From contig OX597819.1 in the NCBI GenBank assembly GCA_951406725.2, positions 106,330,001-106,394,000 on the forward strand: 64,000 bases of DNA. The letters run 5' to 3'. Each line of letters begins with the position of its first letter. Position 1 is the stretch's first letter. The notes beneath the pieces were generated by a model. The model saw only the letters and a program-made list of their open reading frames with translations. It had not been told where the DNA came from and made no database searches. The position numbers were made by a program, and so were the translations under genes. The DNA is from Octopus vulgaris. Taxonomy: Eukaryota. Shown piece after piece: positions 2,248-40,539 of this stretch.

Positions 2248-4557
2248 TTTCATTTCATTTCATTTGAGTTTGAGTCCATGCTCAGGCCAAGTCGAAGACT
2301 CCACCCTTAGGGTCTGGTGTGGTTGCCAGGTTGTATTCTCTGTTTAATTTTGACATGTGTAGGAGCGAGTTTGAGTCAGTTTGTGCTCGTTGTGTATATC
2401 CTGGGAGATGGGGTTCATCTCTAATGGTGCTTAAGTATCTATCCAGCTGCAATTTGAATGATTCCACACTGCATCCTGATAGATTTCTGACATGTACCGG
2501 AATGGAGTTGAATAGTTGTGCTCCTCGAACCAACAGACTTGACTCTCGCAGGGTTTTTGCTGCCTGGCCAGCCTTTTTGTTGATTGGTGGTAGCTGGCAG
2601 CGTCTTCCGTGGCGCAGTGAGTGGTAGGTTTTGATACCAAAGTTTGGCACCTTTTGCTCTATCATTTTCCAAATGTATATAATTCGGTATCGCTCAAATC
2701 GTCTTTCTATTGAGTACATCTTCAAGGTTTTGAGTCTTTTCCAATAGTCCAGGTCCCTCGTTTCTGAGAAGTATGAGGTAAAATTTCTTTGGAGCAATTC
2801 CATCTTAGATAGTTGACCCCTTGTTGTTGGTGACCAAAACTGAGAACTGTAGTCAATCCTCGGAAGTATCATACTGTTCCAGAGGGTTTTCATTGTTGAG
2901 GTATCTCTTGATTTGAAGGTGCGCAAGATCCACCCGCTGTACTTTCTTGCAGTAAGACAGACTGAGTCAGGGTGTTCTCTGAATTTTAGGCTGGTTCCCA
3001 TGTGGATGCCTAAATCTTTCACATACTGTTTTTCCATTATTTGTTGTCCTGATGGGTTTCTGTAGTTTGTTGTATTTTTCAGATCTTGATCTGTTCCGTA
3101 GCGAATTAGTTCAAACTTCTTATCATTGAACAACGTGTTGTTTGTTTCCTGCCATTTATATATGGTGGTCAGGTCCTTTTGTAAGGCCTCTGTATCCACC
3201 TCGTCTTTGATTTGTCTTATGAACCTGGTGTCATCAGCAAAGGATGAGACATTGCTGGTTGTATCTTCATCTATGTCAGAGATGAGGATGAGAAACAGGA
3301 TTGGGCCGAGTACTGTACCCTGAGGAACACTGCTGGTCACAGGTGATGGTGTTGAATGGGTTCCATTCACAGTGACTGTTTGAGTTCTATTTGTAAGGAA
3401 CTCATGTATCCATGTACCAACTTTTCCTCCTACACCTAGCTTTCGAAGTTTGTGACCCAGGATGCCATGATCTACCTTATCAAATGCCTTGGCAAAGTCG
3501 AGGTAAATAACATCTGTGTTGTATCCATTCTCTAGACTTTCTAGGATTTGGTCATGGTGTGCCAGTAGTTGGGAAAGACATGATCTACCTAACCTGAATC
3601 CATGCTGGTTGCAATTCATCAGATTGTTGGATTCCAGGAACTCAACCAGTTTTCCACGAACTATTCTTTCGAAGACCTTGATAATGTGTGATGTCAGTGA
3701 GATTGGTCGGTAGTTCTTTGGTTTTGATTTGCTGTCCCCTTTATGTATTGGAGTTATGTGTGCTTCTTTATATGTATTTGGTATTTTGCCATTCTCCATA
3801 GATTCCCTCCATATCATGTAAAGGGGTTTCAACAATTGTACCTTGCAGTTTTTAAGTATCATGGCATTGAAACCGTCAGGCCCCGCAGCCGAGTGCATGG
3901 AGAGCTTGTCTATGGCTCTTTCTATGTCTTCTGGGTTGAAATTAATGTCGGATAGGGTAGGTGTAGTATGGTCGATATCCTTGAAGAATTTTCCTGGGTC
4001 ATGGATCTTCATGGTTTTAGATGGCTCACTGAAGACACTTTCATACTGTTGACCCAACATTTCTGCCATTTCAATAGGGTTATTCACTACATCCTCATTT
4101 TGTCTCTGGAGAGGTCCTATTGTTGACTTGGTATTCGAGTATTTCTTTGCAAAACTGTAGAAACATTTTGGATTTTTCTTGATGTTTTCTATGGCTCTCT
4201 TTTCTGCATTGTTACGTTCTTCATCATAGTGTTGTTTTAGATTGTCTTCTAATCTGTATATTTGGTCAAGGACTTTCTGTAATTCATGTTTTGATGTCAG
4301 CTTAGATGTTTTGTTTCTTAGTCTTGACCTTTTGCGCATCAGGATCTTTCGCTCCCGTGGTACAGGTTTTTTTGTGGATTTGGTTTTCTTAAGAGGAATA
4401 TTTTTTGCACATATTTCTTCGATCTTATTTAAGAATTTCTTGTGTTTATCTGGCCCAGTAAGGTAGAGATCCCAGTCAATGATTTGTAACTGGTTGTTAA
4501 TAGTTTCCCAATTTGCCTGGTGATAATCATACCTGCATATCTTTGGCATGTCCTTAA
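2248..4557 (-). mobile_element. 5'-truncated CR1/L2-group LINE inserted in a (TA)n run
   Basis: RT ORF followed by a very short 3' UTR and a (TGAAA)n-like tail (2248-2265). ATATATATAT lies on both flanks (possible TSD). No APE endonuclease or ORF1. Confidence 0.9.
2282..4549 (-). CDS. Non-LTR retrotransposon reverse transcriptase (ORF2 lacking endonuclease), 755 aa, uninterrupted
   Basis: Motifs GPDG, NYRPISLTS, QHGFR.GRSC, YLDFAKAFDKV, VPQGTVLGP.LF, FADD, KDLG, DYSSQFWSP; CR1-like linker NPKCFYSF..TIGPL. Confidence 0.92.
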   Translation of the reverse strand: MPKICRYDYHQANWETINNQLQIIDWDLYLTGPDKHKKFLNKIEEICAKNIPLKKTKSTKKPVPRERKILMRKRSRLRNKTSKLTSKHELQKVLDQIYRLEDNLKQHYDEERNNAEKRAIENIKKNPKCFYSFAKKYSNTKSTIGPLQRQNEDVVNNPIEMAEMLGQQYESVFSEPSKTMKIHDPGKFFKDIDHTTPTLSDINFNPEDIERAIDKLSMHSAAGPDGFNAMILKNCKVQLLKPLYMIWRESMENGKIPNTYKEAHITPIHKGDSKSKPKNYRPISLTSHIIKVFERIVRGKLVEFLESNNLMNCNQHGFRLGRSCLSQLLAHHDQILESLENGYNTDVIYLDFAKAFDKVDHGILGHKLRKLGVGGKVGTWIHEFLTNRTQTVTVNGTHSTPSPVTSSVPQGTVLGPILFLILISDIDEDTTSNVSSFADDTRFIRQIKDEVDTEALQKDLTTIYKWQETNNTLFNDKKFELIRYGTDQDLKNTTNYRNPSGQQIMEKQYVKDLGIHMGTSLKFREHPDSVCLTARKYSGWILRTFKSRDTSTMKTLWNSMILPRIDYSSQFWSPTTRGQLSKMELLQRNFTSYFSETRDLDYWKRLKTLKMYSIERRFERYRIIYIWKMIEQKVPNFGIKTYHSLRHGRRCQLPPINKKAGQAAKTLRESSLLVRGAQLFNSIPVHVRNLSGCSVESFKLQLDRYLSTIRDEPHLPGYTQRAQTDSNSLLHMSKLNREYNLATTPDPKGGVFDLA

Positions 4558-4567
4558 ATATATATAT

Positions 4568-4827
4568 GAAAAAACAAGTCAGGATAGAAAATGCTAAAAT
4601 AATTCTATAAAGACCATTTCAGTACCGGTTTCAATCATTGAGACCTTTTCAACTGTAACAATTAAATAATTAAATTTAGAAAAATTAAAAGAAAAGTTTT
4701 TTTAAAAGAATATTTGTATAGTGTTCAAATATAAGTGGCATTTTCCTTGTTTCTGTTTTTCTCTGTCTCTCTTGTTTACTCTTGTCGGTTCGAGGTCGAA
4801 CCCACAAGAGTAAACAAGAATGACAGA

Positions 4828-9090: not shown

Positions 9091-9309
9091 GACATTCAAA
9101 ATGTGACCGCGTGTGTACCGTTGGCGATTTTTTTCCTCCGCCTTCCCTTCTTTGGATCTTTCCTTTTCCTATGTTTCTGAAGAAGAGCTCCGCTCGAAAC
9201 GTTAAACCCTCCTTCTTTCCTTCTTTCCTGAGCGTCCAATAATACTATACTTGTTCCACGTCCTTGCGTTGTAGTGTTTTCTCTTTGTGTTTTCATGTTT
9301 GGATTAACT
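9091..9309 (+). mobile_element. ~220 bp TA-flanked pLTR-like element with minimal hammerhead
   Basis: Bounded by (TA)n; ends ...AAC|TATA. Shares TGACCGC, GAGCGTC-AA-TAATAC and the hammerhead with 36767-36950. Confidence 0.65.
9173..9207 (+). ncRNA. Minimal type I hammerhead ribozyme motif
   Basis: GTTT-CTGAAGA-A-GAGC(TCC)GCTC-GAAA-CG-TT-AAAC: intact CUGANGA and GAAA, stem I GTTT/AAAC, palindromic AACGTT at stem III. Confidence 0.65.
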
Positions 9310-17570: not shown

Positions 17571-17787
17571 GTATCTATCTATATACCAGTACACATATTA
17601 TATATATTGTCAACCCGTAGATAACGCGGTGTTTTCAATTGCATAAACTAAAAGTCGGAGGGGGACGGGATAAACCACCCGCATCAACTTGCTATAAAAG
17701 CAGCTATTAATTTTACCTTGCAATTACTCTTAGTGCAAGTTTTGAAGGGTGCAGTTCGATTTTAACAGTTACTTTTTCAAAGCTATA

Positions 17788-19425
17788 ATGGAAGTAACAA
17801 AGGGGCATATTAGGCTTGTTTTGGTTTATGAGTTCAATAAAGGCATCATCGCAACGGAAAGTGTGTGGAATATTAATGCAGTATATGGGGATCAGACAAT
17901 TAATGTAAGTCAGTGTCATCGGTGGTTCCAGAAATTTTCAGCCGGAAACTACAGTGTAAAAGACGAGCCTCGTCCTGGAAGATTTGTAGAGCACGACGAG
18001 GACGTCCTGCAAATCCTGATGGAACAAAATCCTATCGTAATTGTTGAGGAACTAGCAGAAAATCTTGGATTTCATCATTCAACTATTCACCAACACTTGC
18101 GTACCATTGGAAAAGTCAGCAAATTGGGTCAATGGGTTCCTCAAAAACTTTCCGATTCTAATCGCGCTCAGAGATTGAACGTGTGCTCATTTTGCTGTCA
18201 TGTTTCACGAATGAACCTTTTATGGACCGAATAGTGAGTGACGGGTGACGAGAAATGGGTTCGCCATAAAAATGTTATGCGCTGACGATAGTGGTCAGAG
18301 AAAGGAGAAACACCGGTACCCCAGGCGAAAGAAGGTCTTCGCCCACCTAAGGTGTTGTTTTCTGTTTGGAGGCATATGAAAGAATTAGTCGACTTTGAAC
18401 GTTGAAACCCAAACGAAATAGTAGCAAAGGGAAGCTACTGTGAGCAGCTTGATCGGCTTAGGCTAGAAGAAATACGACTATCTTCATTTTCAAGATGAAA
18501 GTAGTTCTTCCATCAGGATAATGTTCGGCCAGATACAGCAAGGATGACATTCCAAAGGCTGGAGCAGATTGAATGGGAAACGATGCCGCACCCAACGTAT
18601 TCGCCGGACATTTCCCCATCTGATTATCATTTAATACTCAGTCTTCAAAATCATTTAGACGGAAAATTTATGAATCCTTATTCCTTTATTGTCCACAAAG
18701 GGCTAAATATAGAGGGGACAAGCAAGGACAGACGAAGGGACTAAGTCGATTACATCGATCCCAGTGCATAAATGGTACTAAATTTATCGACCTCGAATAG
18801 ATGAAAGGCAAAGTCGACCCCGGCGGAATTTGAACTCAGAACGTAACGGCAGACGAAATACCCATTTCTTTACTCCCCTAAGGAGTTAAACACAGAGAGG
18901 ACAAACAAGGACAGACAAACGGATTAAGTCGATTATATCGACTCCACTGCGTAACTGGTACTTATTTATTCGACCTCGAAAGGATGAAAGGCAAAGTCGA
19001 CCTCGGCGGAATTTGAACTCAGAACGTAGTAGCAGACGAAATACCTATTTCTTTACTACCCACAAGGGACTAAACACAGAGGGAACAAACAAGGACAGAC
19101 AAACAGACTAAGTCGATTACATCGACCCCAGTGCGTAACTGGTACTTAATTTATCGACCCCGAAAGGATGAAAGGCAAAGTCGACCTCGGTGGAATTTGA
19201 ACTCAGAACGTAACAGCAGACGAAATATCGCTAAGCATTTTTCTGACGTGCTAACGTTTTCGACAGCTCGTCGCAAAATTTATGAATTCTGTAGACGAGG
19301 TCAGAACAATACTGGAAGATTATTTTTCGTCACGGACAGGTGGATTTTAGAAAGGGAACCTTGCAAGTCAGGCAGATAGATGGAAGAGCATTGTAGAAAA
19401 TGAGGGAGAGTATATTTTCGATTAA
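17788..19425 (+). pseudogene. Mariner transposase pseudogene
   Basis: MEVTKGHIR..RWFQKF..WVPQKL..VTGDEKW..HQDN..YSPDISPSDYHL..[SINE]..RWKSIVENEGEYIFD*; frameshifts and stops. Confidence 0.9.
18676..19274 (-). mobile_element. Head-to-tail SINE trimer (one full tRNA head plus two headless units) with 13-bp TSD
   Basis: Three ~185 bp units; AAAATTTATGAAT at 18663-18675 and 19275-19287; B box GAGTTCAAATTCC on the minus strand. Confidence 0.92.
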
Positions 19426-27629: not shown

Positions 27630-29500
27630 TATATAACTCTAATCTTCTTCAAAATAGGATCATCTGACTTCATAAATAAACTAGTTCCCCATTGGCATGT
27701 AATGCCTCTTCATGAATGCAACATGCAAGTTTTCAAAAGTGAAGGTGTCCAGGACTTTCAACTAGAACAAGCAAACGTCACAGGGAAAACGTCTTGGTTG
27801 TATGGAGACAGAGGGAGAGTTTTGATGGCCATCTTTTTCAGTTAATTGTTTACCATATGGAACTATGGACTGGTGCATTATCCTGGCGTAGGTGATCTAT
27901 TCTTTTGCGATGAAACCTCTTTCTGATCTTCCTCAAAGCATTCACAAAGTACTAGTTGTTGGCCTTCTGACAAGAGGGAACCCAGTGGCTGTATCAGGTC
28001 ATCCCATAACTTCTGTCCGAATTTTGAATAAAGAAAACAAGTGATCAAATGGTATATTTAAATGAAATTTAATCATCAATGTACCTTCCTGATTATCTAT
28101 GGCATCCTTCTATCTATGCACAAGCTTTTTAATCCCATCACTGTAAAACTCTTTTGGTTTCAAAGCGAAGAACACTGAAATGTCAGTTTCGACCTCCTCC
28201 TGGCTTGCGAAAGTTATGTTCCCCAAATGATTCTGTAAACTACGAAACAAATGGTAGTCTGAATGAGCAAGTTCGGGAGAATAAGTTGGAAGAGAAATTT
28301 TTTTCCGAACCAAGCTCTTCGATCTTCTGTGATGTGATCTTTGCAGTGTGGAGTTGCGCATTGTCCTGATGAAACATTACTCCTTTTCGATACACTAAAG
28401 CGGGTCTTTTTTTCTTCAAATCTTGATTTAAACGCTCTAATTGCTGACAATAGACTTGAGTTTTGATTGTTGTATTAGGTGGTAACAATTCAAAGTGAAT
28501 TACTCCTTTGCAATCCCGCCAGGTAGAGAGAAGAACCTTTTCCCATGAAGTTCCCTTCTCAGTTGTAGTTGAGCTTTTTCCCTTTTACGAAGCCACTGTT
28601 TACAACATTAAACATTTCGTCACCAGTCATAAGTCTATACAAAAAGGGTTAAATGAGTTCGCAAGAATGGAAAGAAGAGCAGATGTCAACTCGGGATTTG
28701 TGGTTGCTTTCGGATGACGATGAACACTTGTATGATTTAAACTATGCATTATTGCCAGTTCTTCAACTGATAATTCAGGATTTTCTTCAAGTAATGCTTC
28801 AAGGAGCTTATCATAAAACTCAACTGGACGTCTTGTTCGATCTTCATCTTCAAAGCTAAAATCTCCACTTCTGAATTTTGCAAACCATCTTCTGCAAGTT
28901 CTTTCATTCAAGCATTCTTTCTTATAAACTGAGTGTATGTTTCAAGCCGCTTCGGCTGCAGAGTTTCCTTTTTTGTACTCATAAAGCATTATGTGCCTCA
29001 ATTGCTCGTTGGATACTTCCATGTTAGAAAGGGATTTAATTAAAGAAATTTTAATTCGATTATTCTGTAAAATAACATTTAATTAGTTTAAATGTTCACA
29101 AATGCATAAAAATAATTCTTAATTCCATTAGACCTTCTGAAATATTTCATTCAATTTTAAAATAGGTAAAATCGGACAGGACTTATGGGATGACATGATA
29201 GAAGGTGCCCTTCGTGTCGAAAAAGGGTATCGTCATGACCTACTTCTTGTATTTATCTTCCCTGGCTCCTTATGCCAAAAGTAATCACATGCTCCACTCA
29301 TACAAGTTAATCCATTATCAAACTTGAGCATTTCGTAAGTTACTCTACCGTTTTTGCTCAGTTTAACACAAAACTTTCTTGCATAGTGAGCAGATTGTCT
29401 TCACATCACGTTTGAAATCTACAAACTGGTCAGTTGTGACAAGCACTGTTTCGGAAGGTGTGTTTAAAGTGCTGTTACTGTTGTTTTCTTCAATCTGGAA
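27630..29500 (-). mobile_element. Older, internally deleted mariner hosting a nested mariner
   Basis: YARKFCVKLSKNGRVTYEML..; IPFFDTKGTF|Y|SHWVP (split at TA by the insert); RKRFHRKR..QDNAPVH..KMAIKTLPLSPY..SYFEED*. Confidence 0.75.
27992..29200 (-). mobile_element. Mariner (DD34D) with TIRs; transposase pseudogene ~29022-28069
   Basis: TIRs TATCAGGTCATCCCATAACTTCTGTCCGA / TCGGACAGGACTTATGGGATGACATGATA. MEVSNEQLRHIMLYEYKKG..RRWFAKFRSG..FHQDNA..YSPELAHSDYHLFRSLQNHL..GRYIDD*; the WVPHEL region is deleted. Confidence 0.92.
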
Positions 29501-39392: not shown

Positions 39393-39439
<47 letters not shown>

Positions 39440-39907
39440 ATATAGTGTACATTTAAACACATTAAGAAGTTTCCATCATAGGAATCCTTTACGCTAGAAA
39501 GAACAGCTAAAGTTCAAACCACTAATTAGGGATTAATTCTCAAAGGGAAAGAAAAATAAAAACATTTACTATCTCTTTCCTGGACCATGGTTTCTGACTT
39601 ATTCTAGTAAATAAAATAATTTACCATGGTGAAGTCTTCATCAGCAAGGATGCCAAGATTAAATATATAAGCACGAGGTCAATCCAGCAAGTGCCTCTTG
39701 CTTATATATTTTTATTTTTTTCAAATCCACCGCGCAAGCGCAGTCTATTTTGTCGGCAGCAAAAGAAAGACGCCGGTAATTTCTTCAAACGAATCTACCA
39801 GAAATCATTATACATAATTAATAATATCAGGGTAATAAAGATTTTAGAAATTTTTACTACCAGTAATAATTTCTAAAATCTTTATTACCCTGATAATATT
39901 AATTAAA

Positions 39908-39908
<1 letters not shown>
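39440..39908 (-). mobile_element. ~470 bp TA-flanked non-coding structured element: 5' palindrome, hairpin, hammerhead, T-rich 3' part
   Basis: (TA)n on both sides; 91-bp palindrome 39815-39905; 18-bp stem 39661-39711; hammerhead 39578-39650. Confidence 0.7.
39578..39650 (-). ncRNA. Type I hammerhead ribozyme with perfect core
   Basis: TCCTTG-CTGATGA-AGACTT(31 nt)AAGTCA-GAAA-CCATGG-TC-CAGGA; GUC triplet, predicted cut between 39583 and 39582. Confidence 0.75.
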
Positions 39909-39961
<53 letters not shown>

Positions 39962-40539
39962 AATGATGAGTCTGTCTGACACTGGAACACTTTATAGTGT
40001 GTTTCATTTTAATTTATTGTATGCTTTATCTTTCTTTACTCTTTGTATTTTATTTTTGTCACTTACTTCCTGTTTGTATCCTCAAGCTAGCAACTTTATC
40101 TAATCCTTGCCATTCCTCATTCCTCCTCAATGAATTTTAGATACGACTATCAACATGCTTTAATTAAGCTCAAGAGCGAAACGTCATTTGTGTAACGAGA
40201 AACCAAGTTATATCACCTAAAGACATACTTAAGCATTGTTTAGTTTCCCACTCACGAGCGAACGGTGCAGGAAGTTTCGAAACGATCGTTGTTATAAATA
40301 ACGTTTCCAGTATATTTTATCTTTCGGGTCCATTGTTTCTACTATATTCAATGTGTGCTGAGGAATTCCTAACGTAGATCCAGCGACAGTTGTGCAGTTA
40401 ATACGAATGATAGCAGATAGCCATAAGCAGTGAACCTGCTTTGCCGGCATGCTATCTAGGATTGGGATATAACGAAAGCGAAGGTAAAATTTTAAAAGGC
40501 GAGAAGCCAGACTATGGAGGAGTAATTAAAATGAAAAGA

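What the first reader, a model, noticed from the sequence alone, without database searches (positions are those of the whole stretch)
39578..39650. Perfect-core hammerhead whose loop II carries a second copy of its stem III palindrome
Seen on the minus strand: CUGAUGA, GAAA and GUC are intact; stem I UCCU(U)G/CAGGA; stem II GACUU/AAGUC above an A-A mismatch, extended by an 8-bp hairpin; stem III is the 8-nt palindrome ACCAUGGU. An identical ACCAUGGU lies in the stem II extension. Inference: the internal copy could pair with stem III in cis and act as a switch against dimer-dependent cleavage. I know of no description of this, but it could be chance or a local duplication.
Basis: partly seen in the sequence, partly recalled or inferred. 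Interest (0 to 1): 0.75.

Follow-up and report, generated by a model that had tools for sequence, protein, structure and literature searches.

The report
Decayed hammerhead repeat with accidental self-trap
This is one old copy of a common, protein-less repeat that carries a known type of self-cutting RNA motif predicted to work only in pairs; the second palindrome that caught the eye is a rare variant (2 exact copies among hundreds) that is predicted to jam the motif rather than switch it.

Summary
The sequence description is right; the switch reading is not supported. The motif is a type I hammerhead with a palindromic stem III inside a 473-bp non-coding repeat with at least 373 copies, inserted in TA microsatellites, often as tandem or head-to-head copies: the footprint of a Penelope-mobilised retrozyme-like element. 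In 13 of 13 tested copies without the loop palindrome the double-hammerhead dimer is the predicted best fold, the published behaviour of such ribozymes. The second ACCATGGT is exact in only 2 copies genome-wide; CCATGGT in 7 copies at 6 loci. The family reads GCC-TAGC or GCC-TGGT there; one inserted A and a recurrent CpG change made the palindrome. Even the 'perfect' C3 is a probable back-mutation: this lineage reads UUGAUGA. Cis pairing is predicted (probability 0.7-0.9) but gives no active fold and shows no covariation, so it is a likely accidental trap in a solo copy 5.4% decayed. The scan found this kind of element before at other places of this genome. Side interest: a lineage with U3-G8 and an A-A mismatch still spread to hundreds of copies. 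Cleavage and transcription were not shown.

The parts
39433..39905 (-). Single insertion of the 473-bp hammerhead repeat family (main arm about 39863 to 39433 plus short inverted arm), between TA microsatellites
   Evidence: blastn against 30 genomic copies; 23 of 426 positions (5.4%) differ from the majority of 34 close copies
39578..39650 (-). Type I hammerhead motif, Penelope/retrozyme kind, predicted dimer-dependent; predicted cut 39583/39582
39638..39644 (-). Core CUGAUGA; C3 at 39644 is a probable back-mutation from the lineage's U3
   Evidence: 3 of 69 lineage-B entries carry C3 among the first 100 listed (hand count)
39645..39648 (-). Stem I 5' strand (family CCUG; here CUUG, C>T at 39647), pairs with CAGG 39582-39579
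39623..39630 (-). Second ACCATGGT in the stem II internal loop and extension; from GCC-TGGT by an A inserted at 39627 (small subclade) and G>A at a CpG (39630)
39605..39626 (-). 8-bp stem II extension hairpin, kept across the family with one compensatory C-G/U-A change between subfamilies
   Evidence: pair C-G in 38, U-A in 33 of 81 rows (one inherited event)
39584..39591 (-). Stem III palindrome ACCATGGT, predicted dimerisation helix; ACCATTGGT in the sister lineage
39815..39905 (.). Near-perfect 91-bp foldback made by a 44-bp inverted copy of the unit's 'long' 3' end at the 5' side of the insertion
   Evidence: 7 positions differ from the reverse complement
39395..39432 (.). TA/TG microsatellite at the 'short' 3' end of the main arm
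39906..39962 (.). TA microsatellite beside the inverted arm

Best explanation
The motif is the hammerhead of one old, solitary copy of a 473-bp non-coding repeat that was likely pasted into a TA microsatellite by Penelope-like retrotransposon enzymes, and its second palindrome is a likely accidental variant predicted to misfold the ribozyme. Shown: family size, tandem and head-to-head copies, two fixed 3' ends at TA runs, no ORF, rarity of the second palindrome. Inferred from folding and literature: in tandem transcripts two hammerheads swap strands and pair their ACCAUGGU palindromes to form a double hammerhead that would cut at GUC|CAGG and release unit-length RNA; a Penelope-type RT/GIY-YIG protein would copy this RNA from both strands of a nick in AT-rich DNA, giving the long-end/short-end inverted arms. 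Inferred history of this copy: the source lineage read UUGAUGA with GCC-TGGT in loop II; a source element gained one A (GCCATGGT); after insertion this copy drifted G>A (ACCATGGT), U3>C and C>T in stem I. The loop copy would then out-compete stem II and the dimer helix, leaving an inactive fold.
For: Family: 874 candidates, 373 exact 5' halves, 210 exact 3' halves; unit 473 bp, 33% GC, longest ATG ORF 63 aa; tandem spacings 456-473. Insertion footprint: 3' ends cluster at two points of the unit; 18 of 22 head-to-head pairs have one short and one long end, the window included (one locus counted twice). Dimer: double hammerhead within 0.4 kcal/mol of the best homodimer fold in 13 of 13 copies lacking loop CCAUGG, but 0.8-9.6 kcal/mol above it in 5 of 5 with it, window +3.7. 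Rarity: 2 exact; 7 CCATGGT copies at 6 loci; about half of the A-insertion subclade reads CATAGT instead (4 of 10). G>A at 39630 recurs in copies without the insertion (4 of 99 listed; L010, L011). No covariation in the loop-stem III helix; the inserted column is a gap in 66 of 81 rows. Literature: palindromic helix III and dimers in Penelope hammerheads (PMC4209133, parts 1-2 read), both-strand priming at AT-rich DNA and cleavage not needed for insertion in vitro (PMC11167929, passages), tandem/inverted structure and (TA)n targets (PMC8557442, passages).
Against: No autonomous Penelope-like partner sharing this sequence was found; GIY-YIG-type fragments near three copies (L008 Pfam PF01541 E 1.4e-06; L065, L084 by tblastn) look like separate insertions. 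No cleavage, transcript or circle was shown. 0 of 30 copies picked by their 3' part begin exactly at the cut site. The loop CCATGGT lies at 6 dispersed loci, so a source element likely carried it and still moved; the tree is star-like and does not settle whether CATGG or CATAG was first in the subclade, nor whether the two ACC copies share descent. Folding energies ignore tertiary contacts and proteins.
Confidence: 0.85

Rival explanations
1. Regulated cis switch: the loop II palindrome was selected to sequester stem III and block dimer cleavage until a protein or a partner RNA refolds it.
For: Cis pairing is the predicted dominant fold in all 7 tested copies with CATGG in the loop (probability 0.36-0.98) and at most 0.13 in 11 without. 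CCATGGT occurs at 6 dispersed loci, so it probably existed in a mobile source. A Penelope hammerhead has been shown to need its protein to cleave (PMC11167929, passages), so protein-driven refolding is conceivable.
Against: About 2% of copies carry it (7 of at least 373); exact form in 2; no covariation; carriers mostly have U3, and several have broken stem I; sister copies in the same subclade lost it (CATAGT); the window copy is solo, with no second family hammerhead in 64 kb and three drift-type changes in the motif.
Confidence: 0.05
2. The loop copy arose by templated palindrome-perfecting mutation (template switch between the imperfect inverted repeats GCC-TGGT and ACCATGGT during reverse transcription or DNA replication), not by independent point changes; still functionless.
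For: Both changes (A insertion, G>A) move the loop towards a perfect complement of stem III 31 nt away; ACC is in 3 of 10 A-insertion copies against 4 of 99 others. Quasi-palindrome correction is a known mutational route (recalled, no call).
Against: G>A is a CpG transition that also occurs without the insertion; 1 of those 3 ACC copies reads ACCATAGT, which is not perfected, and 1 is the ascertained window copy; numbers are small.
Confidence: 0.2
3. The unit is the pseudo-LTR (5'-truncated end) of an autonomous Penelope-like element rather than a free-standing retrozyme-like repeat.
For: Same hammerhead class and insertion footprint as Penelope pLTRs (PMC4209133, PMC8557442); an unpaired A9.1 plus G10.1-C11.1 register is possible and a diverged relative (L117) shows the classic form.
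Against: In 30 + 30 loci inspected by all-against-all coverage no shared flank extends beyond the unit; tandem copies run unit into unit with no ORF; three 10-kb regions with paired copies held no Penelope ORF between them (output partly cut).
Confidence: 0.25

Closest known systems
Penelope-like element hammerheads with palindromic helix III (Cervera and De la Pena 2014, PMC4209133; parts 1-2 of 4 read). Lunse et al. 2017 on dimer cleavage seen only as a reference in PMC6765202; not held, not read
   Same: Type I, short helix I (4 bp), enlarged helix II, short palindromic helix III predicted to work as a dimer, dispersed single copies, close opposite-strand pairs
   Different: An extra nucleotide (U or A) lies between the GACUU/AAGUC helix and GAAA; the main lineage has U3 with G8 kept, whereas the variant described there is U3-A8; no linked ORF found
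Metazoan non-LTR retrozymes (Cervera and de la Pena 2020, PMC7229834, passages; Li, Clavereau and Pollet 2026, 10.64898/2026.07.22.740005, parts 1-2 of 5 read)
   Same: Non-coding AT-rich unit with one type I hammerhead, in monomers and tandem dimers; proposed to be non-autonomous Penelope derivatives
   Different: Unit 456-473 bp, above the 170-400 nt of the first paper but inside the 51-972 bp of the second; mostly monomers and head-to-head pairs; hammerhead is of the minimal Penelope form, with no loop I/II contact evident; circles and cleavage not shown
PAc Poseidon element mechanism (Frangieh et al. 2024, PMC11167929, passages)
   Same: Priming on both strands at AT-rich DNA from fixed internal RNA sites fits the two fixed 3' ends and inverted arms; hammerhead cleavage dispensable for insertion in vitro fits spread of weakened cores
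   Different: PAc is autonomous and protein-coding; here the enzyme is unidentified

Membership tests
Type I hammerhead ribozyme | Core CUGANGA, GAAA, UH in order with stems I and II | tested here: met
   family helices 84-96% paired
Type I hammerhead ribozyme | Pair 10.1-11.1 closing stem II | tested here: not met
   A-A in the window and its lineage; A-U in 29 of 81 rows. Alternative register with unpaired A9.1 leaves an extra base before GAAA
Type I hammerhead ribozyme | Self-cleavage at the predicted site | not testable with these tools
   No raw RNA reads were offered
Type I hammerhead ribozyme | Match to an Rfam hammerhead model | tested here: not met
   the long loop II and minimal stem III may explain the miss (inference)
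Penelope-type dimeric hammerhead | Short palindromic stem III that favours a double hammerhead | tested here: met
   13 of 13 copies without loop CCAUGG, (prediction); the window copy itself is 3.7 kcal/mol off
Non-LTR retrozyme | Non-coding repeat unit with one type I hammerhead, found in tandem copies | tested here: met
   473-bp unit, no ORF over 63 aa from ATG; tandem dimers L030, L093/L094, C11 pair; the window copy is a monomer
Non-LTR retrozyme | Expressed as linear and circular unit-length RNA | tested here: inconclusive
   No RNA holder on record; only short contigs from guessed RNA runs
Penelope-like element (autonomous) | RT plus GIY-YIG ORF between pseudo-LTRs | tested here: not met
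   None joined to the unit in the loci examined; a genome-wide protein search was not completed
Penelope-like element (insertion footprint) | Tandem and inverted 5'-truncated copies, microsatellite targets | tested here: met
Conserved RNA conformational switch | Alternative helix conserved and covarying across family members | tested here: not met

The most novel reading that the evidence does not exclude
A small source lineage of this retrozyme-like repeat (CCATGGT in loop II, 6 loci) evolved a built-in decoy of its own dimerisation palindrome, which holds the hammerhead off in single transcripts until the Penelope protein or a second RNA refolds it: a natural self-sequestering off-switch for a dimer-dependent ribozyme, in a family that spread with a U3-G8 core.
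Probability: 0.06. Interest if true: 0.55.

Novelty: new member of a known kind. Interest (0 to 1): 0.17.

Why it matters
As a switch it does not stand: the feature is rare, recent and not conserved. What remains useful is a natural allelic series in one family: C3 with A10.1-U11.1 and ACCAUUGGU (62 exact 5' halves), U3-G8 with A-U, U3-G8 with A-A (the majority), and a few self-trapping copies. Because lineages with predicted weak cores still reached hundreds of copies, testing them would bear on the open question whether hammerhead cleavage is needed for Penelope and retrozyme spread (dispensable in vitro in PMC11167929). I found no paper on such a loop decoy or on U3 with G8 kept (searches; subscription papers, including Lunse 2017, were not visible).

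Tried and rejected
Rfam: no hammerhead hit. A second family hammerhead within the window as cis dimer partner: none. Widely spaced pairs as pLTR-ORF-pLTR: three regions fetched were duplications or carried unrelated insertions; the endonuclease-like fragment in L063 splits a unit, so it is a later insertion. GIY-YIG fragments at L008, L065, L084: not joined to the unit; the genome-wide search with one of them was not run to completion, so the partner enzyme stays open. 5' truncation at the cut site as a trace of cleavage: 0 of 30 exact; one joint at 39582/39657 in one contig each of two runs, with 2 letters fitting both sides and unknown letters between, not pursued. Expression: no RNA holder listed; contigs only. 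Conservation of the window's own alleles in other individuals or species: 39630-39647 had no cover at 97% likeness in two large runs, while 39676-39743 matched exactly; a hole proves nothing, so no conclusion. Tree of 34 close copies: star-like, 1 of 31 branches well supported. Alignment A1 used 81 of 96 extracted motifs (one identical row and longer-indel rows left out); L102 did not fit the folding pattern. A 3-kb stretch at the computed place of earlier finding e1-9532857 did not match this family. Lunse et al. 2017 is not held. Supplementary figures of PMC4209133 and PMC7229834, which may list cephalopod or U3 variants, were not read.

Full report
1. Observation. A hammerhead descriptor finds this motif and one other in the window, against 0-1 in 20 shuffles. 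Rfam does not recognise it.

2. It is a repeat copy. The window lies in a 2.8-Gb genome rich in microsatellites (earlier AI notes call it octopus, which I did not test). The 111-bp motif has 874 candidate matches, 40 scored, at 86-95% identity. Homology spans about 39433-39905 and stops at TA runs on both sides. Tandem copies give a unit of 473 bp (456-470 in the sister lineage), 33% GC, with no ATG ORF over 63 aa. Copies end at two fixed points about 150-165 and 245-250 nt after the cut site, each running into a microsatellite, and 18 of 22 head-to-head pairs combine one short and one long end; the window copy does so too, its 91-bp foldback at 39815-39905 being the short inverted arm. This is the tandem/inverted, (TA)n-seeking footprint described for Penelope-like elements (PMC8557442, passages) and fits priming on both strands at AT-rich DNA (PMC11167929, passages). 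Earlier notes of this scan report the same rule for other hammerhead repeats in this genome; I saw the two ends in my own loci and then counted the pairs after reading those notes.

3. The hammerhead across the family. Exact counts in the genome: 373 for a degenerate 5' half, 210 for the 3' half as in the window, 62 for the lineage A 5' half. Lineage A has CUGAAGA, an A10.1-U11.1 pair and stem III ACCAUUGGU. Lineage B, to which the window belongs, has U at position 3 with G8 kept, mostly an A-A mismatch, and the perfect ACCAUGGU. Among the first 100 listed 5' halves, 66 have U3, 29 are lineage A, 3 are lineage B with C3 and 2 have other letters (hand count). Natural covariation at this pair is reported as U3-A8 (PMC4209133; PMC3088659, passages), so U3-G8 is likely a weaker core (inference). 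On 81 aligned motifs the hammerhead helices are 91.6% paired and the stem II extension carries one compensatory change, C-G in 38 rows and U-A in 33 (one inherited event, so modest evidence). In homodimer folding the double hammerhead is within 0.4 kcal/mol of the best fold in 13 of 13 natural copies lacking the loop palindrome: the known dimer mode of palindromic helix III (PMC4209133; PMC6765202, passages).

4. The second palindrome. With its context it is exact in 2 copies genome-wide, the window and L027. A looser pattern gives 11 matches against 5 for the reversed control; 8 are family copies known from loci, 7 of them with CCATGGT at 6 loci, and 3 were not fetched. The family reads GCC-TAGC, GCC-TGGC or GCC-TGGT here; 0 of the first 100 listed and 0 of 30 copies chosen by their 3' part carry ACCATGGT. 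A small subclade gained one A; of its 10 exact matches 6 read CATGGT and 4 CATAGT. The G>A at 39630 is a CpG change that also occurs without the insertion (4 of 99). The helix between loop and stem III has a gap at the inserted column in 66 of 81 rows and no covariation signal (43 of 500 shuffles reach the score). The window copy differs from the majority of 34 close copies at 5.4% of sites, typical of the 2-10% range, and has three lineage-minority changes inside the motif: U3>C, C>T in stem I, G>A in the loop. One helps the ribozyme, two harm it, as drift would give.

5. What the extra palindrome would do. In the homodimer it pushes the double hammerhead 0.8-9.6 kcal/mol above the best fold in 5 of 5 such copies. 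The loop copy has no GAAA before it and no CAGG after it, so it cannot complete an active core (sequence). The copy is also alone: no second family motif within the window. The predicted result is an off state, with nothing to show that it is ever turned on. Against my reading: six dispersed loci share CCATGGT, so a source element probably carried the trap and still moved. That is compatible with a switch, but more simply with cleavage being dispensable for insertion, as shown in vitro for PAc, and with the spread of U3-G8 copies.

6. Not shown. Transcription, cleavage, circles, the mobilising enzyme and conservation of the window alleles in relatives (inconclusive).

7. Verdict. A real hammerhead motif of a known kind in a new non-autonomous Penelope-type repeat family; the highlighted oddity is most likely a mutational accident in one decayed copy. 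Interest 0.17; new member of a known kind.

Noticed in passing
window 9173-9207 (+): A second, unrelated minimal hammerhead of the classic Penelope form (CUGAAGA, unpaired A, 4-bp stem II, GAAAC, short stem III) found by the descriptor scan.
   Followed up: no
genome-wide; e.g. L015, L051, L123 versus L093: The larger lineage of this family has U3 with G8 kept and mostly an A-A mismatch at 10.1-11.1, yet reached hundreds of copies; the smaller lineage keeps C3, A-U and a 9-nt odd palindrome in stem III. A stepwise series of intermediates exists.
   Followed up: partly
L117:~1430-1500 on the minus strand; L106, L124, L034: More diverged relatives share the unit's 3' part but have different stem II sequences; L117 shows the classic unpaired A9.1 plus G-C directly before GAAA.
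   Followed up: partly
window 39582/39657 in runs X19 and X20: One contig in each run joins 39582 to 39657, a junction at the predicted cut site with 2 letters fitting both sides.
   Followed up: no
L008:589-1086 (-), L065:5498-5923 (-), L084:1-105: GIY-YIG endonuclease fragments with an upstream cysteine motif, likely from Penelope-like elements, near family copies but in separate TA runs.
   Followed up: partly
L063:3700-4480: A fragment with an endonuclease-like ORF (resembles restriction-like LINE ends; recalled, not tested) inserted inside one unit.
   Followed up: no
window 2282-4618 (-): 778-aa open frame with a reverse transcriptase domain (Pfam RVT_1, E 3e-29), a LINE-type element unrelated to the finding.
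   Followed up: partly
window 18693-19227: About 3 tandem copies of a 183-bp SINE-like unit.
   Followed up: no
window 17746-18234 (+), 28240-28941 (-): Broken frames that read like mariner-type transposase pieces (resemblance recalled, not tested).
   Followed up: no
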